A stretch of DNA of 32,000 bases from Candidatus Paracaedimonas acanthamoebae. Lineage in GTDB: Bacteria; Pseudomonadota; Alphaproteobacteria; Caedimonadales; Caedimonadaceae. The stretch spans positions 1-32,000 of the forward strand of contig CP008939.1 of assembly GCA_000743035.1 (NCBI GenBank), read 5' to 3'. The notes beneath the pieces were generated by a model that saw nothing but the letters and a program-made list of their open reading frames with translations, was not told the DNA's origin and searched no databases. The translations under genes were made by a program, and so were the position numbers. Shown here piece after piece: positions 1,195 to 24,602 of the stretch. The first letter of the stretch is position 1; every line of letters starts with the position of its first letter.

Positions 1195-1294
1195 TGAACA
1201 GGTTGATGAGGGCGTTCTGATGCTTATACGTTGGCAGGATCCTTGCATGCTGACCACTTGCAAAAAGGAAAATGGAAATATCTCTATAGGGTTG
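1195..1294 (+). pseudogene. Degenerate IS6-family transposase fragment
   Basis: Translates to ...LHADHLQKGKWKYLYR, compare SWHLDETYLRVKGKWKYLYR in the 7064-7789 transposase. Cut off by the IS110-like remnant at 1295. Confidence 0.4.
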
Positions 1295-1396
1295 TAATAC
1301 TGTGTTAAGAATCAAGGATTATTTTTAAGGATTTGAGGGTTAAAAGCTGTTTTATATTCCAGCACCTCAAAGCATACGTGAAGGAGCTTTCTCATA
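1295..1396. mobile_element. Diverged remnant (~100 bp) of the 3' end of the IS110-family element
   Basis: taatactgtgttaagaatcaaggattatttttaaggatttgagggttaaaagctg... aligns by eye with 8781-8885 and 23212-23316 with scattered mismatches. Confidence 0.5.
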
Positions 1397-1511
1397 TTTG
1401 ACTTTCAAGTCTACTCCCTTACCCCAAAGTGCAACAAAACCAGACAGAGTCCTTTAAGCTTTATTAACTTTTTCACCCTATTATTTAATCTGTAAACAAT
1501 AGGAGGTTATA

Positions 1512-2063: not shown

Positions 2064-2150
2064 GGTTCTATTGCAACTTTGAGCTAAAGGTAGAATTTAT
2101 CTAACGAAATAAAAGCCTTTTTAAATTTTAGACATAGTTGAAGTGTAGAT
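2064..2150. mobile_element. Solo right-end remnant of the 7000-7845 IS6-like element
   Basis: ttgcaactttgagctaaaggtagaatttatctaacgaaataaaagcctttttaaattttagacatagttgaagtgtagat resembles the reverse complement of 7760-7845. Truncated by the element at 2151. Confidence 0.55.
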
Positions 2151-2988
2151 GGCGCCGTCAAGTTAATTGGAAGGATTTATAAATAGGCAAGAGCTTAGTT
2201 TATTTTAGGCAGCAAGTATCTTAAGAGCCGCCTTGAGCCAAATGGCCTTGGGGGCAGCAAAAGCAAGTCGCTGGTCAGAGGCTTTCTTTTTGTATCGACC
2301 AACCCCTACTGAAAATAGATTTCTTACCTTTCCCATAAGTGACAATAATCTTTGAGCTCCTTGAGCTGATTTAAACTTTATCAAAATCTTCTCTTTCCGT
2401 CGTGTGGGCTGATGAGCATTCTTAGCTCTGTTATTTAATCTCTTATGCGTCCTATGATCAACCTTAGGGCACATAAAGCGTACAGGCTTAATATAACTTT
2501 TCAGCTTATCAGTAACGATTACTTGTGGCGTTGGATAAGATCTTAATAATCGACTGAGAAATCTAATAGCTGATTTCTTATTCCGATGTTTTTGAAGAAA
2601 AACATCTAGCTCTAGTCCTTCTCGATCAACAGCTCTCCAAAGAACAAACCATTGCCCATTAATCTTAATGTTCATTTCATCTAAATGCCATTTATCATAA
2701 GGATTTCTCTCCCGCTTCTTGATAACATTTAAGAAGTGATGAGCAAATTTATGGCACCATTCTCGGATTGTTTCATGACTGAGGATAATTCCTCGAAAAG
2801 CCATTTGTTCTTGGATATCTCCATAGCTATTATTAAACCGATGATAATGCCATATGGCTTGATTAATAATAGATAAAGGAAAGCGGTGACGCTTAGGCGC
2901 TTTAGTGAGAGACATTAAATAACTCATTTTTATTGCAACTGTAAAAAAAACTATCAGAAAAATTTACAAAAGTTAAGTTGACGGCGCC
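2151..2988 (-). mobile_element. IS6-family insertion sequence (type 3 in this window)
   Basis: Terminal IRs ggcgccgtcaagttaattgg (2151-2170) and aagttaagttgacggcgcc (2970-2988) flank a single 240-aa DDE transposase ORF. Confidence 0.75.
2205..2927 (-). CDS. IS6-family DDE transposase
   Basis: HRFPLSIINQAIWHYHRF..., WHLDEMNIKINGQWFVLWRAVD, VTDKLKSY, NNRAKNAHQPTRRKEK. These match the IS6/IS240-type motifs as I recall them. Confidence 0.8.
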   Translation of the reverse strand: MSYLMSLTKAPKRHRFPLSIINQAIWHYHRFNNSYGDIQEQMAFRGIILSHETIREWCHKFAHHFLNVIKKRERNPYDKWHLDEMNIKINGQWFVLWRAVDREGLELDVFLQKHRNKKSAIRFLSRLLRSYPTPQVIVTDKLKSYIKPVRFMCPKVDHRTHKRLNNRAKNAHQPTRRKEKILIKFKSAQGAQRLLSLMGKVRNLFSVGVGRYKKKASDQRLAFAAPKAIWLKAALKILAA

Positions 2989-2989
2989 A

Positions 2990-3254
2990 TCATCAGCCCA
3001 CACGACGGAAAGAGAAGATTTTGATAAAGTTTAAATCAGCTCAAGGAGCTCAAAGATTATTGTCACTTATGGGAAAGGTAAGAAATCTATTTTCAGTAGG
3101 GGTTGGTCGATACAAAAAGAAAGCCTCTGACCAGCGACTTGCTTTTGCTGCCCCCAAGGCCATTTGGCTCAAGGCGGCTCTTAAGATACTTGCTGCCTAA
3201 AATAAACTAAGCTCTTGCCTATTTATAAATCCTTCCAATTAACTTGACGGCGCC
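2990..3254 (+). mobile_element. Partial second copy (3' 265 bp) of the 2151-2988 element, in inverted orientation
   Basis: 2990-3254 is the reverse complement of 2151-2415. It looks identical in the stretches I compared by eye, and the junction was checked base by base at 2989-2995. Confidence 0.75.
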
Positions 3255-3298
3255 TAATAAAATTATCGTCTAAAAATTTGTAGAGACATGAAATAGAT

Positions 3299-6999: not shown

Positions 7000-7845
7000 G
7001 GCTGTGTTGCAACTTTGAGCTAAGGGAGTAAACTTAAAGGTCAAATAACTTTGGGTGCTACCTATGAAACATCAAGATTTCCGTTATCGACAATTCTTAC
7101 CTACCATTATCCTACAATGCATGCGCTGGTATTTAAGGTACCCCTTAAGCTACCGTAACCTGGAAGAGATGATGGAAGAAAGAGGCGTGGAGGTTGACCA
7201 TACAACTCTTTATCGCTGGGTGCAAAAGTATGCCCCTGAACTTGAGAAAAGAATCAGATGGCATGCGCGTACCTTCTGCAGATCTTGGCATCTTGATGAG
7301 ACCTACCTGAGGGTAAAAGGGAAATGGAAGTATCTTTATCGGGCTATTGATAAGAATGGAGGGACTATAGACTTCATGCTCTCAAGCAAACGTAATTATC
7401 AAGCAGCATATAACTTTCTTAAGAATGCTCTGAAGAAAACAAGAGTTAATGAGAGGCCTTTAAAGATTACAACAGACAAACACCCTTGTTATGCTCCAGC
7501 CATTCAAGCCTTAAAGAAAGAAAAGCTTCTTAAACCTCATGTTGAGCACCGTCAGACGAGGTATCTCAACAATGTTATAGAATCAGATCACAGAAGAATA
7601 AAAAGAAGGACAAGACCTATGATGGAATTTAAGAGTTTAGTCTCTGCTAAGAGAGTCATAAAAGGCATAGAAGCAATGAATATGATCGTTAAAAAGCAAT
7701 CATGTTTCTTTGCAGGCAGCATCCATGATCAGATCTATTTTATTCATCGCATCTTTAATATCTACACCCGAACTATGTCCAAAATTTGAAAAAGCTTTTA
7801 TTTCCTAGCTTAATTGTAACCTTAGCTCAAAGTTGCAACACAGCC
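7000..7845 (+). mobile_element. IS6-family insertion sequence (type 2)
   Basis: 26-bp perfect IRs ggctgtgttgcaactttgagctaagg at 7000-7025 and, inverted, at 7820-7845. Single transposase ORF. The flanking 8-mers gttacagc and gataaaag differ, so there is no target-site duplication. Confidence 0.8.
7064..7789 (+). CDS. IS6-family (IS26-like) DDE transposase
   Basis: MKHQDFRYRQFLPTIILQCMRWYLRYPLSYRNLEEMMEERGVEVDHTTLYRWVQKYAPE, WHLDETYLRVKGKWKYLYRAID, TDKHPCY, NNVIESDHRRIKRR. The track ORF starts at an upstream GTG (7055). Confidence 0.85.
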   Translation: MKHQDFRYRQFLPTIILQCMRWYLRYPLSYRNLEEMMEERGVEVDHTTLYRWVQKYAPELEKRIRWHARTFCRSWHLDETYLRVKGKWKYLYRAIDKNGGTIDFMLSSKRNYQAAYNFLKNALKKTRVNERPLKITTDKHPCYAPAIQALKKEKLLKPHVEHRQTRYLNNVIESDHRRIKRRTRPMMEFKSLVSAKRVIKGIEAMNMIVKKQSCFFAGSIHDQIYFIHRIFNIYTRTMSKI

Positions 7846-8525
7846 GATAAAAGGCCTTTCTCTGTGAGCACCTTTTCAACAGATTCCATGCCCTTCTCAG
7901 CCGTCCAGCGAAAAGCTCTCTGTTGATCCTGAGCTGCCCCATCTCTTGACTCGCCAACAATCACTAAACCCTTAGCGCTTATCCCGTAAGACCAACTCTT
8001 GCGTCCGCCATTTAAGGTGCCTAAGGATTCCATGCCCTTCTCAACCGTCCAGCGAAAGGCTCGCCGTTGATGCTGCGTTGCCCCATCCTTTGCTTCGCCA
8101 ACAATCACTGAACCATCAGAACTTACCCCCAAAGCAATGCTCTCACTTCCTCCATTTAAGAAGCCAAGGTCTGTAAAAGAGAAAGTACAATGCTCCCTCA
8201 CAAGGGCCTTATAATTTCTTTCTTGAGCAGAATTTTCTTTTAAAATGATTTGCGCTCTCTTGGCATATTCCCTCCAAAGTTGGTTATCGTCCATTAACCT
8301 TTGCCATCTTAAACTTGTGCTTGTGACAGAAGGGATATCTTTTTGGTTGAGAAACGAAAAGATGACCACGTAGAGTTCATCAGGTAGATCTTCTATGTGC
8401 TGGGCGCTATGAATGGGTGGGGAATCTTCATTCTCTGTACCAGACGGAAAGGCTAAAAGGCTTGTGGTCAACACAGTTAAAAGAAATATAAATCTTAAAG
8501 ATTTCTTAAAGCAAAATTTCAACAT
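7827..8525 (-). CDS. Secreted F-box / HAF-repeat protein, 3' end replaced by the IS6 inverted repeat
   Basis: Signal peptide. F-box LPDELYVVIFSFLNQKDIPSVTSTSLRWQRL. Two HAF-type repeats (GSVIVGEAKDGATQHQRRAFRWTVEKGMESLGTLNGG; GLVIVGESRDGAAQDQQRAFRWTAEKGMES). The last codons and the stop lie inside the IR at 7820-7845. Confidence 0.7.
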   Translation of the reverse strand: MLKFCFKKSLRFIFLLTVLTTSLLAFPSGTENEDSPPIHSAQHIEDLPDELYVVIFSFLNQKDIPSVTSTSLRWQRLMDDNQLWREYAKRAQIILKENSAQERNYKALVREHCTFSFTDLGFLNGGSESIALGVSSDGSVIVGEAKDGATQHQRRAFRWTVEKGMESLGTLNGGRKSWSYGISAKGLVIVGESRDGAAQDQQRAFRWTAEKGMESVEKVLTEKGLLSAVLQL

Positions 8526-8548
8526 GGTATCTTCCTATTGATAATATG

Positions 8549-8600
8549 GGTTTTATTGCAACTTTGAGCTAAAATTACAATTAAGCTAAGGAAATATGGA
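8549..8600. mobile_element. Solo end remnant of the type-2 IS6-like element
   Basis: ttattgcaactttgagctaaaattacaattaagctaaggaaata resembles the terminal ~45 bp of 7000-7845 (right end, inverted). Confidence 0.5.
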
Positions 8601-8797
8601 GCCAATTAAAACTAAATAATAGTAATATCCAGCATGATCCGGGAAAGAACACTCTCAAGTTCGACTTAAGAAGAGAAGAAAGCCTAATAATCCTGACTTT
8701 CCAAAAGCCTTAGCGGCTAAGTAACTTTATCAAGAAAAGAACTTCCCTATTTAAGAAATCTGTCAAAGATTAGACGGCCCTGATACTGTGTTAAGGA

Positions 8798-9775
8798 TCA
8801 AGGATTAATTTTAAGAATTTCAGGGTTAAAAACTGTTTTATATTTCAGCACCCCGAAGCATATATGGAGAAGCTTTCTCATAATAGCGCCTATAATCACC
8901 ATAGTATGTTTACCTTTTTTCTCTAATTTTTGGACAAAGGGTTGAAGAAGCGGATTATGATTTTTAGCTGCGATAGCTGGAAAATAAAGAGCTTTCCTTA
9001 AAGAAGAAGAACCTATTTTAGAAAGACAAGATCTTCCTTTAACAGAAGTCCCTGATGTTCTATGAGATGGCGTAAGACCAGCATATGCAGCTAATTGCCT
9101 GGCACTTTCTAAAGAAGAAAGTTCAGGGATTTCTGCAAGAATAGCTATGGCTGTTATTTTGCCAATGCCTGGAATGCTTTGAAGGTTCCTACAATCCTGG
9201 TTTAAGCTCTCTTTTGAAGAGACCACTTGGTCTATAGCAACATTAACGACGTTAATTTGCTTCTCTATATGCTTGATGAGGTTTTGATAAACTTTCTCAA
9301 CACTTTTTGGAAGGCAGTCTTTGGTTTCTAAGAAGTTTCCAACTTGAGTATGTTGTTCCTTCAAGTTTTGCAAGCATCGATAAAGAGATCTTAATTCTTT
9401 TAACATGGGCTCTTTAGGCTTATAGGCTCTTAACTCATTCTTGCTCGCATACTCTGCAATCAGGTGAGCATCAACCTCATCTGTTTTATGGCGACTAAGC
9501 TTGCTTCTGGCAAAGGCTTTAATACAAGCAGGATTAACAATATGAACTTGATGTCCTTGTTCATAGAGATAATCTGCAAGCTTCTCTCCATAGCTTCCTG
9601 TGGCTTCCATACAGGCCTTAACTTGTTCAATACCTTGTGCTTGCAGCCACTTTGTTAGACCTATGAAGCCTTTAATGTTATTAGAGACCTTGTATTTTTT
9701 ATAAGACGTATGGAGGAGAAGAGCGATAGAAAGGTCTTTCTTAGAAACATCTATCCCTAATATAGCCTCATTCAT
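8798..9775 (-). CDS. IS110-family DEDD transposase/recombinase
   Basis: GIDVSKK..., MEATGSY, HKTDEVDA (RuvC-like DEDD). C-terminal LQSIPGIGKITAIAILAEI... YAGLTPSHRTSGTS domain. Confidence 0.9.
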   Translation of the reverse strand: MNEAILGIDVSKKDLSIALLLHTSYKKYKVSNNIKGFIGLTKWLQAQGIEQVKACMEATGSYGEKLADYLYEQGHQVHIVNPACIKAFARSKLSRHKTDEVDAHLIAEYASKNELRAYKPKEPMLKELRSLYRCLQNLKEQHTQVGNFLETKDCLPKSVEKVYQNLIKHIEKQINVVNVAIDQVVSSKESLNQDCRNLQSIPGIGKITAIAILAEIPELSSLESARQLAAYAGLTPSHRTSGTSVKGRSCLSKIGSSSLRKALYFPAIAAKNHNPLLQPFVQKLEKKGKHTMVIIGAIMRKLLHICFGVLKYKTVFNPEILKINP

Positions 9776-10000
9776 CTTTTTTTTCCTTCCCTCTACTGAT
9801 ATGATTATTTGAGTCTTTAGCTTGTCATGTGAATTCAGAATAAGGTAGAACCTTTTCTTAAGATACTGTTCAGCTCTAGACCAATTGGAAGAGGGCTCTT
9901 ATCAGAACCTCAGATTTGGTGTCTTGTTGCAAATACAGAGTCACCTCTTCCAGCCTACAAGGCTTAGCTACTCTCTCATAGGCTCCTCAGCAACATACAT
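9776..10000 (-). ncRNA. Candidate bridge-RNA-type non-coding RNA in the IS110 5' end (copy A)
   Basis: ~225-nt non-coding leader upstream of the recombinase. An 8-bp stem ggaagagg/cctcttcc encloses a region containing tttgcaacaag, which resembles the insertion target TTGCAAC. Assignment rests on analogy with IS110/IS621 biology. Confidence 0.3.
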
Positions 10001-10001
10001 G

Positions 10002-10095
10002 TTGCAAGTTTGTAGATAAAGTTACAATTTAGTCTAAGGAAATACAGATCTTTTTAAATTATGGAGATAGTTGGGATGTAGATATTAAAAATAAC
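10002..10095. mobile_element. Degenerate right-end remnant of a type-2-like IS6 element, between IS110 copy A and the IS26-like element
   Basis: ttgcaagtttgtagataaagttacaatttagtctaaggaaatacagatctttttaaattatggagatagttgggatgtagatattaaa parallels the reverse complement of 7750-7838. Confidence 0.5.
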
Positions 10096-10924
10096 GGCCC
10101 TGTTGCAAAAATATTATTTGAGCAGATTTAGGTCTTTTTGCAGTTTTCAATTAAACAGTATAGACACTGAATTGTCGGTTAACGAGACGGATTTCTCCCT
10201 TGAGTCCTTGGCGATATTTCCAAAGATCCATCTGTCCCTTTTTAAACATCCTCATCACTTCAAACCCTTTAATCGTTGCATAAGCTGTTTTCAAAGATTT
10301 AAACCCTAGAGTTGGTTTAATCAGTCGTTTGAGTTTACCATGATCAGCTTCAATAAGGTTATTGAGATACTTAATCTGTCGATGCTCAAGGTCTTGAGGA
10401 CAAAGTCCTTCCTTCTTTAATTCTTTGATCGCTACAGCATAAGTAGGTGCCTTATCTGTATTAATTTTACTTGGTTTTTCCCATTCCTTAAACTTTCTTA
10501 AAGCCTTTGAAAGAAACCGTTTGGCAGCACTGATATTTCTTGTCGATGAAAGATAAAAGTCTATAGTACGCCCTCGCTTATCAAGAGCTCGATAAAGGTA
10601 AGCCCATTTACCCTTAACTTTTACATAAGTTTCATCAACTCTCCAGCTATAGCCAAGCCCTGGTTTCCAATACCACCTGAGCCTTTTCTCAATCTCTGGA
10701 GCATAAGTGATTACCCATCTATTAAGAGTTGTATGATCAACCGTAATGCCTCTTTCTTCCATCATTTCTTCAAGGTCCCGATAGCTGATCCCGTATTTAC
10801 AATACCACCTTACGCATCCAAGAATAATATCCCCTTGAAAATGACGCCACTTAAAATCATTCATCCAATAGTCCTCTAATTTTTAGAAACTCTGAACGAA
10901 GACAAAACTTTTTGCAACAGGGCC
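10096..10924 (-). mobile_element. IS6-family insertion sequence (type 1, IS26-like IRs)
   Basis: IRs ggccctgttgcaaaaa (10096-) and tttttgcaacagggcc (-10924), compare the IS26 IR GGCACTGTTGCAAA. The flanking 8-mers aaaataac and aaagtatt differ, so there is no target-site duplication. Confidence 0.85.
10151..10864 (-). CDS. IS6-family (IS26-like) DDE transposase
   Basis: MNDFKWRHFQGDIILGCVRWYCKYGISYRDLEEMMEERGITVDHTTLNRWV..., WRVDETYVKVKGKWAYLYRALD, TDKAPTY, NNLIEADHGKLKR. Confidence 0.9.
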   Translation of the reverse strand: MNDFKWRHFQGDIILGCVRWYCKYGISYRDLEEMMEERGITVDHTTLNRWVITYAPEIEKRLRWYWKPGLGYSWRVDETYVKVKGKWAYLYRALDKRGRTIDFYLSSTRNISAAKRFLSKALRKFKEWEKPSKINTDKAPTYAVAIKELKKEGLCPQDLEHRQIKYLNNLIEADHGKLKRLIKPTLGFKSLKTAYATIKGFEVMRMFKKGQMDLWKYRQGLKGEIRLVNRQFSVYTV

Positions 10925-13900
10925 AAAGTATTTACCTTGTGTTTACGAACGGTCTTTTAGAACCCGGTGTGTCTCGCTTTATCATTAAGAATTATGCTTT
11001 AACTCAGTCTCTTCTTTCTCCTGAAAAGATTCTTACACCTTTTTCACCCCAAAAGGTTGAACGCACAGATCAAGGAATTGAGGTGACCACCAATCCTTGT
11101 AAATGGGATTATCAGTTGATCAGCAAGCCCATCCCCTTGACGTTAGCATCTGCTCTTGAGCTAAGCTTTGAAGCAGACCTCAAAGAAGGAGGGTTTGCTG
11201 TAAAGTTTCTCTCGCAAGATAAGAAGAAATTCCTAGGCGCTAAGTACTATCAAAAACCTGGTCTTGTTAAAGATACGCTCAAACTTCCTTTTGGGGTTTC
11301 TGATAAAAGTATTTACCTTGTGTTGACAAACAGCCTCCTAGAACCCGGTGTGTCTCGCTTTATCATTAAGAATTATGCTTTAACTCAGTCGCCTCTTTCT
11401 CCTGAAAAGATCCTCACACCTTTTTCTCCTCAAAAGGTTGAGCGCACAGACAAGGGAATTGAGGTTATTACCAATCCTGGCAAATTGGATTATCAGTTGA
11501 TCACCAAGCCGATTCCCCTGACGCTGGCCTCTGCTCTTGAGGTGGCTTTTGAAGTCGATCTTAAGGAAGGAGGCTTTGCTGTAAGGTTTCTCTCCCATGA
11601 TAAGAAGAAATTTTTAGCCTCTAAGTACTATCAAAAACCCGCCCTTGTTAAGGATACGCTCAAGCTTCCCTTTGGAACTGATGATGAAAGTATCTACCTT
11701 GTGTTTACAAATAATTTGCTAGAGCCAGGGGTGTCTCGCTTTATCATTAAAGATTATACTTTAATTCAACCAAGTGCTCCACAATCTTCACTTCAAAGTG
11801 AGTCACCATCGCCCTCTTTACCTTTACAAAGGAGAGTGAGAAAGGAACTTCCTTCTCAGCCCGGTTTTATCTATAAGTTTCCACCACAACCTCTTTATAA
11901 TCCTTGGCCTGGTGCTTCTCAAGCAGATGTCACCTTTGAAGTCGAAAAGCTTGAGGATAAGAGTCTTTATTTTATTGGACGTGAAAACAACAACATTATC
12001 TTAGATCATACCAGTCTGCCAGACCAGCTTCAGACTGTGCGCAAAGGTCCCTTCCAGTTAGAACGACACAATGATCTTATTTTTTGGTCTTACCTTGGGC
12101 TTGATCATTCTAGAATGGCTTTTGCCGTGAAAGAAAATGGCGATATCATATTTATGCCTCTGAGAACAGAGACCGGGTACCAAGCGCATAAAGTTTGGAG
12201 CTTTAGAACGACAGGAACCCTTATTAACCAAGCAGATTCTTGCTTTTATTTTTCTTACTTCCAGGCTTCACAAATTCATAATTTTCGTTTGCTGAAGTGT
12301 TTTGGCATGGAGTCGCAGCAATCTTACTTTTTCAATAAGGGAGTCCTGCATTTAGGGGATGACACGGGGATAGCGTCTCTAAGCGTGTATCAAGAATATT
12401 TGCCACTCATTGATGAAAAGGCTGAACCTCATTACCAAAAAGATGTGATTGATGATCATGGGGTTACACTTGCTGAGAAAGGCCTTAAGATTGGACACAT
12501 GACCCATCGTGTTCATCGCTTTACTGAGGCCCAAAAGCTAGAGCTTGATGAAGCGCCTCTTGAGGTTTATCAACAACTCAATGTTGAAGGCCCGATTACC
12601 GGTACCACGCCTTCCATGATCAATCATGGCAGCATGAGTGCGCGTGCGATGACATCAAGCCTGAGTGTTCAAGATTGGATCAACAAGGGTGAAGTTCGCC
12701 TGTCACTACCCTCTGAGATTCGAGCTCAAAATGAGATGGACAACAGCGGTGTTATCCGCAGTATAAGTAGCATCACACTGAGCTCCCGCAAGAAGCCTAA
12801 ATCTTTGGGCATGGTGATTTCCGATGATCAAATTAAAGCGATGATCGACGATATTCTCACGCTTGAGGAGCAAGAGCTTGTCTTTGGAAATGCCCGCTTT
12901 TTGTCGAAAAAGCGCAGGCTTGTTGTAGATATGGTCCATCATACAGACCACTATTTAAACACGATCACCCATCATTATGTCCAAGATAGAGGGTTGCAAC
13001 GATTAATAAGGAAAACCGAGACAGGCTATGTCTTTCAGAAGCGGACTTCTGAAAGGTCTCAAAAAGTCATTGAAAAAGGCGTTATAGACATCCCTGAAGA
13101 GATCGAGGGCTTGGATCGAGCCTTTCATGATCGCCAGCGCCTTTTATCAAAATTGAGAGAAGGGATCAAAGATCGCATACGTGAGCTGATGCGTTTTTAT
13201 AGCGGCATTCAAGACCTCAGCCGAATGTTATCCTCTGTGCTTTCTGGCATGGGGCTGGATAGCGAGGAAGTGAGCGACATTACGAATGACCCTAGCCTCC
13301 AATCTCTTCTGTTAGCTTTGGGCTTGCCAGAGAAGGATGCTTTTGGGCTGGTTGAAACTCTAGATGATCCTCAACGGCTACTTTATCATTCACTTACGGC
13401 CATGGCTCAAGGATTCCAGACCACGGCAGTTCAGTGGATCATGAAGAATCCTGATGCTTTCCTTAATATTGTTTGTGGAGGGGTATCCATTGTAAATTTT
13501 TTGGATAAAATAATACCCTATTCTCCAACAAAGTATCCTTTAGCACAACTTGGATTGCAAGGCGCCAATGCCTTTTGTGGAATAAGAGGAGCACAAAAAA
13601 GCCTCCCTAAGATCCAAGCATATTTCAGCAAACAGCATGATAGTAAGACTGGTGGGATAAGCTCTTCAAGCAGTAGTACTAAGGAAGCACTCCATGGATC
13701 TTCTCAAACACCAAAAAATGTTGCTTTGCATGAAAAACAGAAAGTAGAATTGAGGAAAGAAATGCAAGCGCCGCATGTTGAGGATGCAAGTTTAAAAAAG
13801 CTTATAGAGTGGAATTATAAGACAACTGCGGATGTAGGAAGCGGAAGCACTGCTGATGCAGTTAGATACGAAATAAAAACGGGTTTACCAGTTAAAGGCA

Positions 13901-14037
13901 AGTTTCATACTCAAAAAGCTCAAGAGACAGTGAGCAAGCTTGAAAAATGGATTAGCCAAAACCCAAATGCACATACTAAAGATAAGGCCGCTGCTGAAAA
14001 TGTGTTGAGAGATCTTAGAGATGCTTTAGGAGAATAA
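10925..14037 (+). CDS. Large polymorphic-toxin-like protein, 5'-truncated by the IS at 10096-10924
   Basis: The open frame runs out of the IS IR, and the track start (TTG at 10912) lies inside the IR. Architecture: about 2.2 x 127-aa repeats, a ~470-aa unique region, and a conserved handle (13120-13640) that recurs at 14462 and 15687. A unique ~130-aa C-terminus follows the sequence ...LPKIQAYFSKQH. Confidence 0.7.
10927..11775 (+). repeat. In-frame tandem repeat, 381-bp period (127 aa), about 2.2 copies
   Basis: agtatttaccttgtg...gaacccggtgtgtctcgctttatcattaa recurs at 10927, 11308 and 11689. The protein unit is SIYLV(F/L)TN.LLEPGVSRFIIK.Y.L.Q... Confidence 0.9.
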
Positions 14038-21087: not shown

Positions 21088-22374
21088 TTATGAGTTAATA
21101 TTATTAATGTAAGTTGCTATATCGTTTAAATTATTTAATCCAGTTGGAGGTATATGTGGAAAGGCCCCCTGGGTACGAAATGCTCCTGCTATATTATTAG
21201 TAATTATATTTATCAGATTTTGGACCCCTTGCTGCATAGTTTGTAAATCATTTTGAGCTTGATTACGTTCTGCTATGATTTGCTCGGCCGTGAGAAGAAT
21301 ATTAGAGCCTACTGCAGGATTAACAACTGTCCTTAATTGCGTCATCGCCTCAGGCAAGGAAGCTGCTCCATTATTGATCTCTGTCTTTGCTTGAGTGATA
21401 ACATCTTGCGCCTGTTGTAAATCATTTTGAGCTTGATTACGTTCTGCTATGATTTGCTCGGTAGTGAGAAGAATATTAGAGCCTACTGCAGGATTAACAA
21501 CTGTCCTTAATTGTGTTATTGCTGCAGGCAAGGAAGCTGCTCCATTATTGATCTCTGTCTTTGCTTGAGTGATAACATCTTGCGCCTGTTGTAAATCATT
21601 TTGAGCTTGTTGTAGATCATTCTGAGCTTGATCACGGTCTGCTACAATTTGTTGAGTGGCCAGAAGAATATTAGAGCCTACTGCAGGATTAACAACTGTC
21701 CTTAATTGCGTCATCGCCTCAGGCAAGGAAGCTGCTCCATTATTAATCTCTGTCTTAGCTTGGGTAATAACATCTTGCGCCTGTTGTAAGTGTTGTCTGG
21801 CTTGGTTGCGATCTGCTACCATTAGCTGGGCACCATCCCTTAAATTAATACCAGGAATAATATTCTGGACTACTTGAATAGCTGGAATTAAATCAGGAGC
21901 GTTATTGCCATAAACTTCTATTCTTGCCTGATTAATAATATTTAGTAATGTTTGTAATCTTTGTTGTAAAGCCTGAGCACGCGTATGTAAATCGCCGTTT
22001 CCACCAAGATCTGCTTCAACAGTAGCCAATCCTAACGCAATGGTAAGAGAATTCGAATTAATAGTATTTTTAATACTTGTGCCTTTTGTCGTGAGAGTTG
22101 CTCCAGTGATATTTCCCATAACAACCAAAAGGCCATTTACATCCTGTCGCAGCTTCACATCTTCCCCATTGAGATCAATATCTTCTATTAATTTTAGAAG
22201 TTCATCTATAGGACAATTATATTTAATGGCAAGATTAGCTAATCTTGTTTTCCCAGATGAAGAAAATGCAAGTAACTTTTCCCGTTGCTCTTCATTTAGA
22301 GAAGCTTTTAAAGGATAGGATAAAGACATTATCCCTACTAATGATATGAGTAGTTTTATAGATAATTTAAACAT
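21088..22374 (-). CDS. Secreted coiled-coil protein with 58/65-aa tandem repeats
   Basis: Start placed at MFKLSIKLLISLVGIMSLSYPLKA. Three repeats of QAQDVITQAKTEINNGAASLP.A(M/I)TQLRTVVNPAVGSNILL...Q.I.A.R.QAQNDLQ. Confidence 0.7.
   Translation of the reverse strand: MFKLSIKLLISLVGIMSLSYPLKASLNEEQREKLLAFSSSGKTRLANLAIKYNCPIDELLKLIEDIDLNGEDVKLRQDVNGLLVVMGNITGATLTTKGTSIKNTINSNSLTIALGLATVEADLGGNGDLHTRAQALQQRLQTLLNIINQARIEVYGNNAPDLIPAIQVVQNIIPGINLRDGAQLMVADRNQARQHLQQAQDVITQAKTEINNGAASLPEAMTQLRTVVNPAVGSNILLATQQIVADRDQAQNDLQQAQNDLQQAQDVITQAKTEINNGAASLPAAITQLRTVVNPAVGSNILLTTEQIIAERNQAQNDLQQAQDVITQAKTEINNGAASLPEAMTQLRTVVNPAVGSNILLTAEQIIAERNQAQNDLQTMQQGVQNLINIITNNIAGAFRTQGAFPHIPPTGLNNLNDIATYINNINS
21241..21830 (-). 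repeat. In-frame tandem repeat, 174-bp period (one unit 195 bp)
   Basis: attagagcctactgcaggattaacaactgtccttaattg recurs at 21301, 21475 and 21670. The extra 21 bp duplicates QNDLQQA. Confidence 0.85.
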
Positions 22375-22720
22375 ATGATGCCCCCATGCCCCGAATGTTA
22401 AAAGCAAAAGTTAGCAGCATTCATTATAGAACGCATTAAATTTTTTTCGATTGTCTCTGTCAGCAATAAGTTGCTTATTCTTTTTAGCTAAAGTGAAATA
22501 TTTCTTTTTTTACAACTCATAGCTAACATCAAGAAAAAATGTGCATTATAAAATTCATTTTTATGCTTTGTAACAAATACAATCAAACAGGGTGAAATTT
22601 ATAGATTCTAATAAATAGGCAGTAATTTATGCCCTATTCAAGAACCATCATAAAACTAAATTTTCCCTGATCTTTTCATTAATATACTCGCCTGATAGCA
22701 TTTAAGACATCCTACCTCCC

Positions 22721-23045: not shown

Positions 23046-23211
23046 ATGAATAAATCTGAGCTTATTAGTGAAATTGCAAAAGTAGTTGCCTCAAAACAAG
23101 AAGCTGAGCAAGCTTTCAATGCTATCTTTGAGTCCATTAAACAGGCGCTTGCAAAAGGTGAGGAAGTCCGTTTAACAGGTTTTGGAAGCTTCAAAGTAAA
23201 CGGAAGGGTTG
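23046..23211 (+). pseudogene. hup: HU/IHF-family DNA-binding protein gene truncated after ~55 codons
   Basis: MNKSELISEIAKVVASKQEAEQAFNAIFESIKQALAKGEEVRLTGFGSFKVNGR is a typical HU N-terminus with an aaagga RBS. The beta-arm and C-terminus are missing, and the frame runs into IS110 copy B at 23212. Confidence 0.7.
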
Positions 23212-23228
23212 TGATACTGTGTTAAGGA

Positions 23229-24206
23229 TCAAGGATTAATTTTAAGAATTTCAGGGTTAAAAACTGTTTTATATTTCAGCACCCCGAAGCATATATGGAG
23301 AAGCTTTCTCATAATAGCGCCTATAATCACCATAGTATGTTTACCTTTTTTCTCTAATTTTTGGACAAAGGGTTGAAGAAGCGGATTATGATTTTTAGCT
23401 GCGATAGCTGGAAAATAAAGAGCTTTCCTTAAAGAAGAAGAACCTATTTTAGAAAGACAAGATCTTCCTTTAACAGAAGTCCCTGATGTTCTATGAGATG
23501 GCGTAAGACCAGCATATGCAGCTAATTGCCTGGCACTTTCTAAAGAAGAAAGTTCAGGGATTTCTGCAAGAATAGCTATGGCTGTTATTTTGCCAATGCC
23601 TGGAATGCTTTGAAGGTTCCTACAATCCTGGTTTAAGCTCTCTTTTGAAGAGACCACTTGGTCTATAGCAACATTAACGACGTTAATTTGCTTCTCTATA
23701 TGCTTGATGAGGTTTTGATAAACTTTCTCAACACTTTTTGGAAGGCAGTCTTTGGTTTCTAAGAAGTTTCCAACTTGAGTATGTTGTTCCTTCAAGTTTT
23801 GCAAGCATCGATAAAGAGATCTTAATTCTTTTAACATGGGCTCTTTAGGCTTATAGGCTCTTAACTCATTCTTGCTCGCATACTCTGCAATCAGGTGAGC
23901 ATCAACCTCATCTGTTTTATGGCGACTAAGCTTGCTTCTGGCAAAGGCTTTAATACAAGCAGGATTAACAATATGAACTTGATGTCCTTGTTCATAGAGA
24001 TAATCTGCAAGCTTCTCTCCATAGCTTCCTGTGGCTTCCATACAGGCCTTAACTTGTTCAATACCTTGTGCTTGCAGCCACTTTGTTAGACCTATGAAGC
24101 CTTTAATGTTATTAGAGACCTTGTATTTTTTATAAGACGTATGGAGGAGAAGAGCGATAGAAAGGTCTTTCTTAGAAACATCTATCCCTAATATAGCCTC
24201 ATTCAT
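23229..24206 (-). CDS. IS110-family DEDD transposase/recombinase (protein identical to 8798-9775)
   Basis: The 325-aa translation is identical to copy A in the ORF track. Confidence 0.9.
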   Translation of the reverse strand: MNEAILGIDVSKKDLSIALLLHTSYKKYKVSNNIKGFIGLTKWLQAQGIEQVKACMEATGSYGEKLADYLYEQGHQVHIVNPACIKAFARSKLSRHKTDEVDAHLIAEYASKNELRAYKPKEPMLKELRSLYRCLQNLKEQHTQVGNFLETKDCLPKSVEKVYQNLIKHIEKQINVVNVAIDQVVSSKESLNQDCRNLQSIPGIGKITAIAILAEIPELSSLESARQLAAYAGLTPSHRTSGTSVKGRSCLSKIGSSSLRKALYFPAIAAKNHNPLLQPFVQKLEKKGKHTMVIIGAIMRKLLHICFGVLKYKTVFNPEILKINP

Positions 24207-24431
24207 CTTTTTTTTCCTTCCCTCTACTGATATGATTATTTGAGTCTTTAGCTTGTCATGTGAATTCAGAATAAGGTAGAACCTTTTCTTAAGATACTGT
24301 TCAGCTCTAGACCAATTGGAAGAGGGCTCTTATCAGAACCTCAGATTTGGTGTCTTGTTGCAAATACAGAGTCACCTCTTCCAGCCTACAAGGCTTAGCT
24401 ACTCTCTCATAGGCTCCTCAGCAACATACAT
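24207..24431 (-). ncRNA. Candidate bridge-RNA-type non-coding RNA in the IS110 5' end (copy B)
   Basis: Same sequence as 9776-10000. Confidence 0.3.
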
Positions 24432-24432
24432 G

Positions 24433-24510
24433 TTGCAACTTTGAACAAAAGGATGATTTTATCTAAGGAAATATAGATCCTTTTAAATTTTGGATATAGT
24501 TGGAGCCTAG
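24433..24510. mobile_element. Degenerate right-end remnant of a type-2 IS6-like element abutting IS110 copy B
   Basis: ttgcaactttgaacaaaaggatgattttatctaaggaaatatagatccttttaaattttggatatagttggag parallels the reverse complement of 7760-7838. Confidence 0.5.
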
Positions 24511-24602
24511 TTATTTGAAATTAAATTTTCAAATCTATAGGTTATGCTTCCTTAAGATGCATTCCATGACAGCAACTAATTATGCCTACCATTGTACAGA
24601 CC

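What the first reader, a model, noticed from the sequence alone, without database searches (positions are those of the whole stretch)
8781..10095. Both identical IS110 copies sit at the same position inside the terminal IR of IS6-like elements
Removing copy A in silico joins GGCCCTG (8776-8782) to TTGCAAGTTT (10002-). This recreates an IS6-type IR (compare GGCCCTGTTGCAAAAA at 10096). Removing copy B (23212-24438) joins GGTTGTG to TTGCAACTTTGA (compare GGCTGTGTTGCAACTTTGAGC at 7000). In both cases the IS6-like sequence beyond the IR continues as a degenerate right-end remnant. The IS110 element therefore appears to target the IR of another IS family. IS4321/IS5075 are known to do this for Tn21-family IRs, and it fits the RNA-guided target choice of IS110 recombinases. 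The matching ORF translations, and blocks that look identical by eye, imply recent activity.
Basis: partly seen in the sequence, partly recalled or inferred. Interest (0 to 1): 0.7.

Follow-up and report, generated by a model that had tools for sequence, protein, structure and literature searches.

The report
RNA-guided IS110 element targeting IS6 ends
Two identical copies of a small IS110-family mobile element each sit 7 bp inside the terminal inverted repeat of an IS6-family element, and the element's own predicted bridge RNA spells out that repeat; this is a clear new example of a known RNA-guided insertion mechanism, not a new kind of system.

Summary
The two blocks (8781-10007 and 23212-24438) are 100% identical over 1227 bp. 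The mobile unit is 1219 bp: a 1217-bp body plus one copy of a 2-bp core (TG on the + strand, CA in transposase orientation). The TTGCAA belongs to the target, not the element.

Removing each copy restores a continuous IS6-type end, GGnnnTG|TTGCAA, followed by about 90 bp that align with the right end of the intact IS6 element at 7000-7845. A third, degenerate copy lies at 1297-1396, next to GGTTGTA.

Across public data, all 7 informative left junctions and all 12 right junctions of this element fall at the same position in such repeats.

The mechanism is readable from the sequence. The 224-nt leader upstream of the DEDD recombinase gene folds like the IS621 bridge RNA. Its target loop carries UUUGCAAC(A) and GGUUCUG, which together specify GGTTCTG|TTGCAA. 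Its donor loop carries ACAGUAUC and AU..ACAUG, which match the element's own ends.

In relatives with 53-91% protein identity, these guides change together with the flanks. Several retuned relatives still sit next to IS6 transposase genes.

This is a new member of a known kind, of moderate interest.

The parts
8776..8782 (+). Site A: outer 7 bp of the split IS6-type inverted repeat (GGCCCTG). The last two bases, TG (8781-8782), are the core copy at the right-end junction of the IS110 element.
   Evidence: Same 7-mer as the intact end at 10096.
8783..9999 (-). IS110-family element, copy A, body (1217 bp; 1219 bp with one core). The right end is ...ACACAGTAT at 8783-8791 (complement). The left end starts TGTATGTTG at 9999 going down.
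8798..9775 (-). Recombinase gene, 325 aa. DEDD RuvC-like domain plus Tnp domain. D9, E57, D99, D102 and S241 align with the IS621 catalytic residues.
   Evidence: Pfam. PDB 8WT6 (IS621 transposase), E 2.5e-54 over residues 6-317.
9809..9984 (-). Predicted bridge RNA: 5' stem-loop 9952-9984, target-binding loop module 9887-9951, donor-binding loop module 9809-9884.
   Evidence: Fold. Covariation on 12 relatives: 90% of cells paired, 23 pairs with compensatory changes, 0/500 shuffles. Covariance model hits.
9925..9935 (-). Left target guide, UAUUUGCAACA. It has the same sequence as the target strand TTGCAA plus core.
9903..9909 (-). Right target guide, GGUUCUG, the reverse complement of CA+GAACC. 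It is followed by AU (9901-9902), which is complementary to donor positions AT, like the IS621 handshake guide.
   Evidence: IS621 numbering from PMC11208158.
9862..9869 (-). Left donor guide, ACAGUAUC. It equals the element's right-end tip ACAGTAT plus the first core base, and is identical to IS621 LDG 123-130.
9826..9834 (-). Right donor guide, split as in IS621: AU (9833-9834), two bases skipped, then ACAUG (9826-9830). It is complementary to core plus left-end tip, CATGTAT.
10000..10095 (+). Site A: core copy TG (10000-10001) and the inner part of the IS6 repeat plus a right-end remnant (TTGCAAGTTTG...). It is cut at 10095 by the next IS6 element.
23207..23213 (+). Site B: outer 7 bp of the split repeat (GGTTGTG, core TG 23212-23213). 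The repeat itself truncates an HU-like gene (23046-23210).
23214..24430 (-). IS110-family element, copy B, identical to copy A. Gene 23229-24206; bridge RNA 24240-24415.
24431..24520 (+). Site B: core copy TG and an IS6 right-end remnant (TTGCAACTTTGAAC...).
1290..1441 (-). Third, degenerate copy. GGTTGTA (1290-1296, core TA) is followed by the last 100 nt of an IS110 variant (1297-1396, 86% identical). This is joined by a deletion to the inner side of a 45-nt IS6 left end (1397-1441).
7000..7845 (+). Intact IS6-family element 'ISa' (846 bp, 26-bp perfect terminal repeats GGCTGTGTTGCAACTTTGAGCTAAGG, transposase 7055-7789). Both ends are unoccupied potential targets.
10096..10924 (-). Intact IS6-family element 'ISb' (829 bp, ends GGCCCTGTTGCAAAAA, transposase 10151-10864, 66% identical to the IS26 transposase). 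Both ends are unoccupied.

Best explanation
The window holds an unnamed 1219-bp insertion sequence of the IS110 group, on the IS621-like short-recombinase branch. Its natural target is the tip of the terminal inverted repeat of IS6-family elements. It inserts between position 7 and position 8 of GGTTCTG|TTGCAA, with the TG (CA in element orientation) acting as the shared 2-bp core.

Target choice is most likely made by a bridge RNA transcribed from the 224-nt left end.
[quoted passage not shown] - A second loop carries ACAGUAUC and AU..ACAUG, which pair with the joined ends of the excised element (ACAGTAT-CA-TGTAT).
- The DEDD/Ser recombinase then exchanges strands at the core.

A promoter is predicted to form only when the ends are joined: TTGATC in the right end, 17 bp, then TATGTT in the left end.

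What is shown: element boundaries, split repeats, independent insertions, guide-to-target and guide-to-donor complementarity, conserved RNA structure, covariation of guides with flanks, and homology of protein and RNA architecture to IS621.

What is inferred: that the RNA is made, that the circle forms, and that recombination follows the IS621 pathway.

Both window copies match the left guide fully (TTGCAAC) but the right guide imperfectly (GGGCC and CAACC against the specified GAACC). Some mismatch on the right side is therefore tolerated.
For: Identity and boundaries. Restored IS6 ends. IS6 identity of the target: PF13610 transposases; the IS6 repeat ggttctgttgcaaag quoted in PMC2920175; the IS26 end ...TATTTGCAACAGTGCC next to an annotated IS26 transposase.

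Independent insertion: flanks 75% identical against 100% for the element.

Census: 7 informative left junctions and 12 distinct right junctions, all in such repeats.

Guides: all four guide words are present in the leader in the IS621 order. In 20,000 dinucleotide shuffles they occur singly 0.3%, 1.5%, 0.3% and 14% of the time, and jointly 0 times.

Structure: 46 pairs, 90.3% paired, 23 with compensatory changes, 0/500 shuffles; slid controls reach 35-54%.

Guide-flank covariation across 11 lineages: left side 76/88 matches against a permuted mean of 54 (0/100,000 permutations reach it); right side 49/55 against 32 (2/100,000) (data). The donor guides covary too: ACGGUAU with ACGGTAT in L090, AUAUG with CCTAT in L084, ACAAG with CTTGT in L096.

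The covariance model finds full-length matches upstream of the recombinase gene in relatives not used to build it (117-147 bits). It aligns collinearly to the validated IS621 bridge RNA, with the guides at the same model positions.

Protein: IS621 transposase 8WT6, E 2.5e-54, catalytic residues aligned. Mechanistic frame: PMC11208160 and PMC11208158.
Against: - No expression, circle-junction or transposition data exist for this element.
- Rfam has no matching family.
- The match of my model to IS621 is weak: 18 bits, E 0.058 with default filters over 100 kb, and 1.9e-4 only in a 401-nt search.
- The right guide mismatches its own flank at both window sites (5/7 and 6/7).
- Five intact IS6 ends with a CA core in the same window are empty.
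- The donor-loop handshake bases (AC) do not match target positions 6-7 (AA).
- The base after the left guide varies among relatives, so the second core base seems not to be read by that guide, unlike in IS621.
Confidence: 0.88

Rival explanations
1. The two copies are one insertion that was later duplicated together with its IS6 flank, by segmental duplication or by being carried along with IS6 movement. Under this reading, 'same position' says nothing about targeting.
For: Both copies lie in right-end remnants of related IS6 elements and in the same orientation.
Against: The elements are 100% identical over 1227 bp. The adjoining 94 nt are only 75% identical, the outer 7-mers differ (GGCCCTG vs GGTTGTG), and the sequences beyond are unrelated. 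Five further complete copies from other samples have different flanks at the same repeat position.
Confidence: 0.03
2. TTGCAA (and TG) are the element's own terminal bases. The resemblance to IS6 ends would then be coincidental or reflect a shared end motif, with no targeting of a repeat.
For: The identical blocks run through ...catgttgcaa. A TGTTGCAA word also occurs inside the element at 9925-9932.
Against: One copy is flanked by CTGCAA. Relatives keep CATGTAT but have other flanks. The similarity to IS6 ends continues for about 90 nt past TTGCAA. The outer GGnnnTG lies on the other side of the element. The internal TGTTGCAA is the left target guide, in the structural position of IS621 LTG.
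Confidence: 0.02
3. The element does target IS6 ends, but recognition is by the protein or by DNA structure of the repeat. The complementary words in the leader would be relics or regulatory copies of the target, not guides.
For: No RNA or biochemical data exist for this element. Right-side mismatches are tolerated. A 2026 preprint on ISPpu10 reports a structural layer of target recognition in addition to base pairing (abstract only, listed).
Against: The guide words sit in unpaired loops of a structure kept by compensatory changes. They change in step with the flanks in 11 lineages. The layout is collinear with the experimentally solved IS621 RNA.
Confidence: 0.06

Closest known systems
IS621 (E. 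coli) and the IS110-group bridge-RNA recombinases (Durrant et al. 2024, PMC11208160; Hiraizumi et al. 2024, PMC11208158)
   Same: - Recombinase of the same length (325 vs 326 aa), aligned end to end with DEDD and Ser conserved.
- Long left end upstream of the gene, very short right end, no terminal inverted repeats, and a 2-bp core at both junctions.
- RNA with a 5' stem-loop plus two stem / guide / hairpin / guide modules.
- Left donor guide ACAGUAUC identical, and donor ends ACAGTAT-core-TGTAT identical.
- Split right donor guide, and AU handshake bases after the right target guide.
   Different: - The core is CA, not CT.
- The target is the tip of an IS6-family inverted repeat, not a REP sequence.
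- The right target guide can pair over 7 nt (4 in wild-type IS621).
- The left target guide appears to read only the first core base.
- The donor-loop handshake bases do not match the target.
- RNA sequence similarity is low (18 bits to my model).
IS4321 / IS5075 (IS1111 group), which insert into the 38-bp terminal repeats of Tn21-family transposons (Partridge and Hall 2003, cited)
   Same: A DEDD-recombinase element that uses the terminal inverted repeat of another mobile element as its specific, orientation-fixed target.
   Different: They belong to a different group. IS1111 members have sub-terminal inverted repeats of 7-17 bp and carry the guide RNA downstream of the gene. This element has the RNA upstream and only 15 nt after the stop codon. 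The targeted family is IS6, not Tn3/Tn21.
ISPpu9 / ISPpu10 / ISPa11, which insert into REP sequences
   Same: Multi-copy, non-essential repeated DNA serves as a safe landing site. The family is the same.
   Different: Their target is a host repeat, not the functional end of another transposable element.

Membership tests
IS110 family, IS110 group (bridge-RNA recombinase elements) | Recombinase with an N-terminal DEDD RuvC-like domain and a C-terminal Tnp domain with catalytic serine | tested here: met
   PF01548 (E 1e-26) and PF02371 (E 5e-26). Aligned to IS621 transposase 8WT6 with D9/E57/D99/D102/S241 in register.
IS110 family, IS110 group (bridge-RNA recombinase elements) | Long non-coding left end upstream of the gene, short right end, no terminal inverted repeats | tested here: met
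   224 nt from the left end to the ATG. 15 nt from the stop codon to the right end. The ends TGTATG... and ...CAGTAT are not inverted repeats.
IS110 family, IS110 group (bridge-RNA recombinase elements) | The same 2-bp core at both junctions and in the uninterrupted target | tested here: met
   CA at both junctions of 7 complete copies. Intact repeats have ...TG|TT... at that place. Two degenerate copies have TA on the right side.
IS110 family, IS110 group (bridge-RNA recombinase elements) | Leader RNA with two internal loops kept by covariation | tested here: met
   46 pairs, 90.3% paired, 23 pairs with changes on both sides, 0/500 shuffles. The model finds relatives not used to build it at 117-147 bits.
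IS110 family, IS110 group (bridge-RNA recombinase elements) | Loop 1 complementary to both strands of the target, and loop 2 to the joined donor ends, each including the core | tested here: met
   UUUGCAAC(A) and GGUUCUG against TTGCAA-CA-GAACC. ACAGUAUC and AU..ACAUG against ACAGTAT-CA-TGTAT. No joint occurrence in 20,000 shuffles. Covariation with flanks.
IS110 family, IS110 group (bridge-RNA recombinase elements) | Homology of the RNA to the validated IS621 bridge RNA | tested here: inconclusive
   Collinear full-length alignment with guides at matching positions, but only 18 bits. E is 0.058 over 100 kb with default filters and 1.9e-4 in a 401-nt search. No Rfam family matches.
IS110 family, IS110 group (bridge-RNA recombinase elements) | Circular intermediate with a junction promoter; RNA-dependent recombination | not testable with these tools
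   Only a sequence-level prediction: TTGATC-17 bp-TATGTT across the joined ends. Relatives have TTGAC(n)-17-TATCTT (read).
IS1111 group (IS4321/IS5075-like) | Sub-terminal inverted repeats of 7-17 bp, and the guide RNA in a long right end downstream of the gene | tested here: not met
   The right end is 15 nt and the RNA lies upstream. No sub-terminal repeat is apparent in the end sequences. Definition from PMC11208160.
IS6 family (the targeted elements) | About 0.8-kb element with a single DDE transposase of the IS240/IS26 type | tested here: met
   846 bp and 829 bp. PF13610 with E 9e-51 and 2e-53. ISb is 66% and ISa 47% identical to the IS26 transposase.
IS6 family (the targeted elements) | Terminal inverted repeats beginning GG and containing CTGTTGCAA | tested here: met
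   GGCTGTGTTGCAAC and GGCCCTGTTGCAAA in the window. Compare the IS6 repeat ggttctgttgcaaag (PMC2920175) and the IS26 end GGCACTGTTGCAAATAG.
IS6 family (the targeted elements) | 8-bp target duplications | tested here: not met
   The 8 bp on either side of ISa and ISb differ (read). From my own knowledge, this is common for IS6 members that have moved by cointegrate formation or recombination, so it is weak evidence against membership.

The most novel reading that the evidence does not exclude
This may not be a single element with a chance preference. It may be a whole lineage of IS621-like elements, found mainly in intracellular alphaproteobacteria (Paracaedibacter, Caedibacter, other Holosporales, a Rickettsia plasmid), that lives as a specialised parasite of IS6-family elements. 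Its bridge-RNA target loop would be retuned as the local IS6 repeat changes: TTGCAAC, TCGCATC and GTGCAC variants, all after GGnnnTG.

Because the IS6 tip is conserved across phyla, the natural left guide of the window element already matches one IS26 end at 11 of 11 positions. Such elements could disable or ride on IS6/IS26 copies.
Probability: 0.5. Interest if true: 0.55.

Novelty: new member of a known kind. Interest (0 to 1): 0.42.

Why it matters
- It gives a natural case in which the whole logic of a bridge-RNA element can be read from sequence alone: target, donor, core and guides. The case is backed by many independent insertions and by covariation in relatives.
- It extends 'insertion into another element's terminal repeat', known for IS1111-group elements and Tn21-family transposons, to the IS110 group and the IS6 family.
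- IS6/IS26 elements are the main assemblers of resistance regions. A natural guide that already reads the conserved IS6 tip could be a starting point for tools that mark or disrupt IS26-type ends.
- For genome annotation of IS-rich endosymbionts, it explains a recurrent nested pattern and gives exact boundaries.

Tried and rejected
- Rfam at gathering and at permissive thresholds: nothing relevant.
- Exact-protein look-ups. The recombinase is on record only on one 1.3-kb Logan contig. A window housekeeping-size protein is not on record, so the source genome could not be fetched. A genome-wide map of copies was therefore impossible, and I used other assemblies and metagenomes instead.
- All 18 contigs of protein P0025 turned out to be one and the same place.
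- I first read the degenerate copy at 1297-1396 and locus L003/L161 as IS6 insertions into the IS110 element. Rereading showed that the inner side of the IS6 left end abuts the IS110 interior. These are deletion junctions of an IS110 copy sitting in an IS6 repeat, so the claim of mutual nesting was dropped.
- Single-sequence folding of the leader is not better than shuffles (z = -1.2). Structure support comes only from covariation.
- RNAalifold paired the first 5 nt of the left end with the right donor guide. I read this as the guide-donor complementarity, not as an RNA helix.
- Literature searches found no description of an IS110-family element in IS6 repeats. The library is incomplete, so this is absence of evidence only.
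- Distant relatives (48% protein identity or less: Wolbachia, Acidobacteriota, cyanobacteria) were not analysed for targets. In the tblastn scan only one of them had an IS6 gene in its fetched flanks, about 1 kb from the element (L066).
Full report
**1. What is in the window**

The window is AT-rich (37% GC) and full of mobile DNA. The two blocks named in the finding, 8781-10007 and 23212-24438, are identical at all 1227 positions. Each carries, on the minus strand, a 325-codon gene whose product has the two Pfam domains of IS110-family recombinases (PF01548 and PF02371). The product aligns end to end with the solved IS621 transposase (8WT6, E 2.5e-54). The DEDD residues and the catalytic serine are in register: D9, E57, D99, D102 and S241.

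The window also holds two intact IS6-family elements:
- ISa, 7000-7845, with 26-bp perfect ends GGCTGTGTTGCAACTTTGAGCTAAGG.
- ISb, 10096-10924, with ends GGCCCTGTTGCAAAAA.

Both have DDE_Tnp_IS240 transposases. ISb is 66% identical to the IS26 transposase. Several solo IS6 ends are present as well, at 2064, 8549 and 1441.

**2. Boundaries and the split repeat**

In transposase orientation both copies read ...TTGCAA-CA-TGTATGTTG...[element]...ACACAGTAT-CA-flank. The 2-bp CA (TG on the + strand) is present at both junctions. The element is therefore the 1217-bp body (8783-9999; 23214-24430) plus one core copy, giving 1219 bp.

Removing it joins GGCCCTG to TTGCAAGTTTG at site A and GGTTGTG to TTGCAACTTTG at site B. 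The restored sequences align over about 95 nt with the right end of ISa and with the solo ends. Site A's remnant is cut at 10095 by ISb. Site B's repeat truncates an HU-like gene after about 55 codons.

The flanks past TTGCAA are 75% identical to each other, and the sequences outside the GG are unrelated. The elements themselves are 100% identical. These are two separate, recent insertions into old, diverged IS6 remnants.

The last 100 nt of a variant (86% identical) lie at 1297-1396, next to GGTTGTA. That fragment is joined by a deletion to 45 nt of an IS6 left end.

**3. Other copies**

The recombinase is 100% identical in Candidatus Paracaedibacter symbiosus PRA9. The whole element is 1217/1217 identical on a Logan contig and 1216/1217 identical in PRA9. 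The source is therefore this amoeba symbiont or a close relative.

I pooled the window, PRA9, a Caedibacter MAG and metagenome contigs carrying variants of 89-100% nucleotide identity (the degenerate fragments are about 86%). This gave 7 informative left-end junctions, all [T/C]TGCAA|CA. It also gave 12 distinct right-end junctions: CA|GAACC six times, CA|CAACC three times, CA|GAACT, CA|GGGCC, and two degenerate copies with TA|CAACC and TA|GAACC.

Seven copies have both junctions. Each restores GGnnnTG|TTGCA(A/G). One copy has CTGCAA rather than TTGCAA.

GGTTCTGTTGCAAAG is quoted as the IS6-family repeat in the enterococcal literature (PMC2920175). The IS26 end reads GGCACTGTTGCAAATAG. The insertion point therefore lies in the most conserved part of IS6-family ends.

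**4. The guide RNA**

The frame comes from IS621. There, an RNA from the left end has a target-binding loop and a donor-binding loop.
- The donor loop is built the same way and pairs with the joined element ends (PMC11208160; residue numbers in PMC11208158).

I checked my copy of the IS621 RNA against E. coli genomes. It is 100% identical and lies next to annotated IS621 transposase genes.

The 224-nt leader of the window element contains, in the same order:
- UAUUUGCAACA, which is TTGCAA+CA.
- A short hairpin.
- GGUUCUG followed by AU. GGUUCUG is the reverse complement of CA+GAACC. AU is complementary to donor positions AT, like the IS621 handshake bases.
- ACAGUAUC, which is the right-end tip plus the first core base and is identical to IS621 LDG 123-130.
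- A hairpin.
- AU-UC-ACAUG, complementary to CATGTAT with two bases skipped, exactly as in IS621 RDG 157-158/162-165.

The donor ends are the same as in IS621 apart from the second core base: ACAGTAT-CA-TGTAT against ACAGTAT-CT-TGTAT.

In 20,000 dinucleotide shuffles of the leader, the four words occur in 0.3%, 1.5%, 0.3% and 14% of trials. They never occur together.

**5. Comparative support**

Twelve leaders from relatives of 53-91% protein identity align well. The structure I derived has a 5' stem-loop and two modules. It is 90.3% paired, and 23 of its 46 pairs show changes on both sides. No shuffle out of 500 reaches this, and slid controls fall to 35-54% paired.

The guides change with the flanks. 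The table lists each guide with the flank it matches:

| Guide | Guide sequence | Matching flank | Locus |
|---|---|---|---|
| Right target guide | GGGUCUG | CA\|GACCC | L009 |
| Right target guide | GAUUCUG | CA\|GAATC | L007 |
| Right target guide | GGUUUUG | CA\|AAACC | L088 |
| Right target guide | GGCUUUG | CA\|AAGCC | L089 |
| Right target guide | UAACUUG | CA\|AGTTA | L090 |
| Right target guide | GGGCUGUG | CA\|CAGCCC | L175 |
| Right target guide | AAAAAAUG | CA\|TTTTTA | L173 |
| Left target guide | AGAUGCGAC | AGATGCGA\|C | L008, L084, L172 |
| Left target guide | AGUGCACC | AGTGCAC\|C | L175 |
| Left target guide | UUAAGCAAC | TTAAGCAA\|C | L173 |
| Left target guide | AACCGUACCU | AACCGTAC\|CT | L096 |

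Over 11 lineages, own-pair matches are 76/88 on the left and 49/55 on the right. Permuted pairings average 54 and 32, and 0 and 2 of 100,000 permutations reach the observed values.

The donor guides covary as well (L090, L084, L096).

A covariance model of the two modules finds both window copies at 168 bits. It finds relatives not used to build it at 117-147 bits, and a Wolbachia element at 88 bits. In every case the match lies just upstream of the recombinase gene. On the IS621 locus the model gives a collinear full-length alignment with all four guides at the corresponding model positions. The score is low, 18 bits, so I call direct RNA homology plausible, not proven.

**6. Departures from IS621**

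- The core is CA.
- The base after the left guide varies (A, G or U) among relatives that all have a CA core. The left guide therefore seems to read only the first core base, as the IS621 left donor guide does. The right guides end in UG and read both core bases.
- Both window copies match their own right guide imperfectly: GGGCC and CAACC against the specified GAACC. Variants with GGUUGUG exist (L080, L171) and would match CAACC exactly. A 2026 preprint reports that IS621 can insert at sites matching only half of the RNA (10.64898/2026.08.31.748434). That would accommodate these sites.
- Two degenerate copies carry TA at the right junction. This fits insertion into the TA-type repeats (GGTTCTA, GGTTTTA) also present in the window, because the first core position is the more tolerant one in IS621.
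- Reading the joined ends gives a candidate promoter, TTGATC-17 bp-TATGTT. It is kept as TTGAC(n)-17-TATCTT in relatives (sequences). This is an inference.

**7. A lineage habit?**

Relatives whose left guide is retuned to GATGCGAC still sit next to IS6 transposase sequence. They lie 50-120 nt upstream of an IS6 transposase start (L084, L092), beside an IS240-type fragment (L181-183), or next to a weak IS6 match on a Rickettsia plasmid (L172). Their target GGTTCTG|TCGCATC thus looks like another IS6 end. The targets of L175 (GGGCTGTG|GTGCAC) and L089 (GGCTTTG|TTGCATG) also resemble IS6 tips.

Other relatives do not fit. A Bandiella plasmid copy lies in an IS3-family gene. L088 and L090 have unrelated left targets. 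I rate the lineage-level reading at about even odds.

**8. Verdict**

The thing is an ordinary member, mechanistically, of the bridge-RNA IS110 group. It has a target class that I could not find described: the tip of IS6-family inverted repeats.

It is a new member of a known kind and of moderate interest. It serves mainly as a very clean natural example, and because the IS6/IS26 tip is a target of practical relevance.

Noticed in passing
window 2142-3263: An IS6-like transposase gene (2205-2927, minus strand) lies within a unit bounded by about 265-nt perfect inverted arms (2151-2415 and 2990-3254). The left arm contains the 3' end of the gene. A 9-mer, GACGGCGCC/GGCGCCGTC, marks the arm boundaries. 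This could be an inverted duplication or an invertible segment.
   Followed up: no
window 7801-8600: An F-box-domain gene (7827-8525, minus strand) is bracketed by the right end of ISa and an inverted solo IS6 end at 8549, forming a pseudo-composite arrangement. A second weak F-box/LRR ORF lies at 443-1063.
   Followed up: partly
window 23046-23210: An HU-type DNA-binding protein gene (PF00216, profile positions 1-54 of 90) is cut off by the IS6 repeat at site B. The rest of the gene is not downstream.
   Followed up: partly
window 1295-1296; L005 about 450-460: Two degenerate IS110 copies have TA instead of CA at the right-end junction. This matches the TA-type IS6 ends GGTTCTA (2064) and GGTTTTA (8549), and suggests insertion into targets mismatched at the first core base.
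   Followed up: partly
L001 1231-1262: On the Logan contig, 12 nt past the right flank, there is a 12-nt inverted copy of the element's right tip plus core (CTGATACTGTGT). It could be an assembly artefact or a donor half-site.
   Followed up: no
L173 (NZ_CP104165.1, Ca. Bandiella numerosa plasmid): A 53% identical relative has its target loop retuned to TTAAGCAA|CA|TTTTT and sits inside an IS3-family transposase gene. There are four places on that plasmid. This is another case of an IS110 element living inside another IS.
   Followed up: partly
L003 / L161 (Caedibacter sp. 38-128) and window 1397: In two independent cases an IS110 copy in an IS6 repeat has lost its left end through a deletion that joins the IS110 interior to the interior of the IS6 left end. 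The cause is unknown.
   Followed up: partly
window 9925-9935 vs IS26 end (L174 about 938-954): The natural left target guide UAUUUGCAACA matches one IS26 end (TATTTGCAACA|GTGCC) at 11 of 11 positions. The right side would match 3 of 5.
   Followed up: partly
window 10912-14037 and 21088-22407: Large ORFs are built of long tandem units (381 nt, and 174-195 nt). They have no convincing Pfam family.
   Followed up: no
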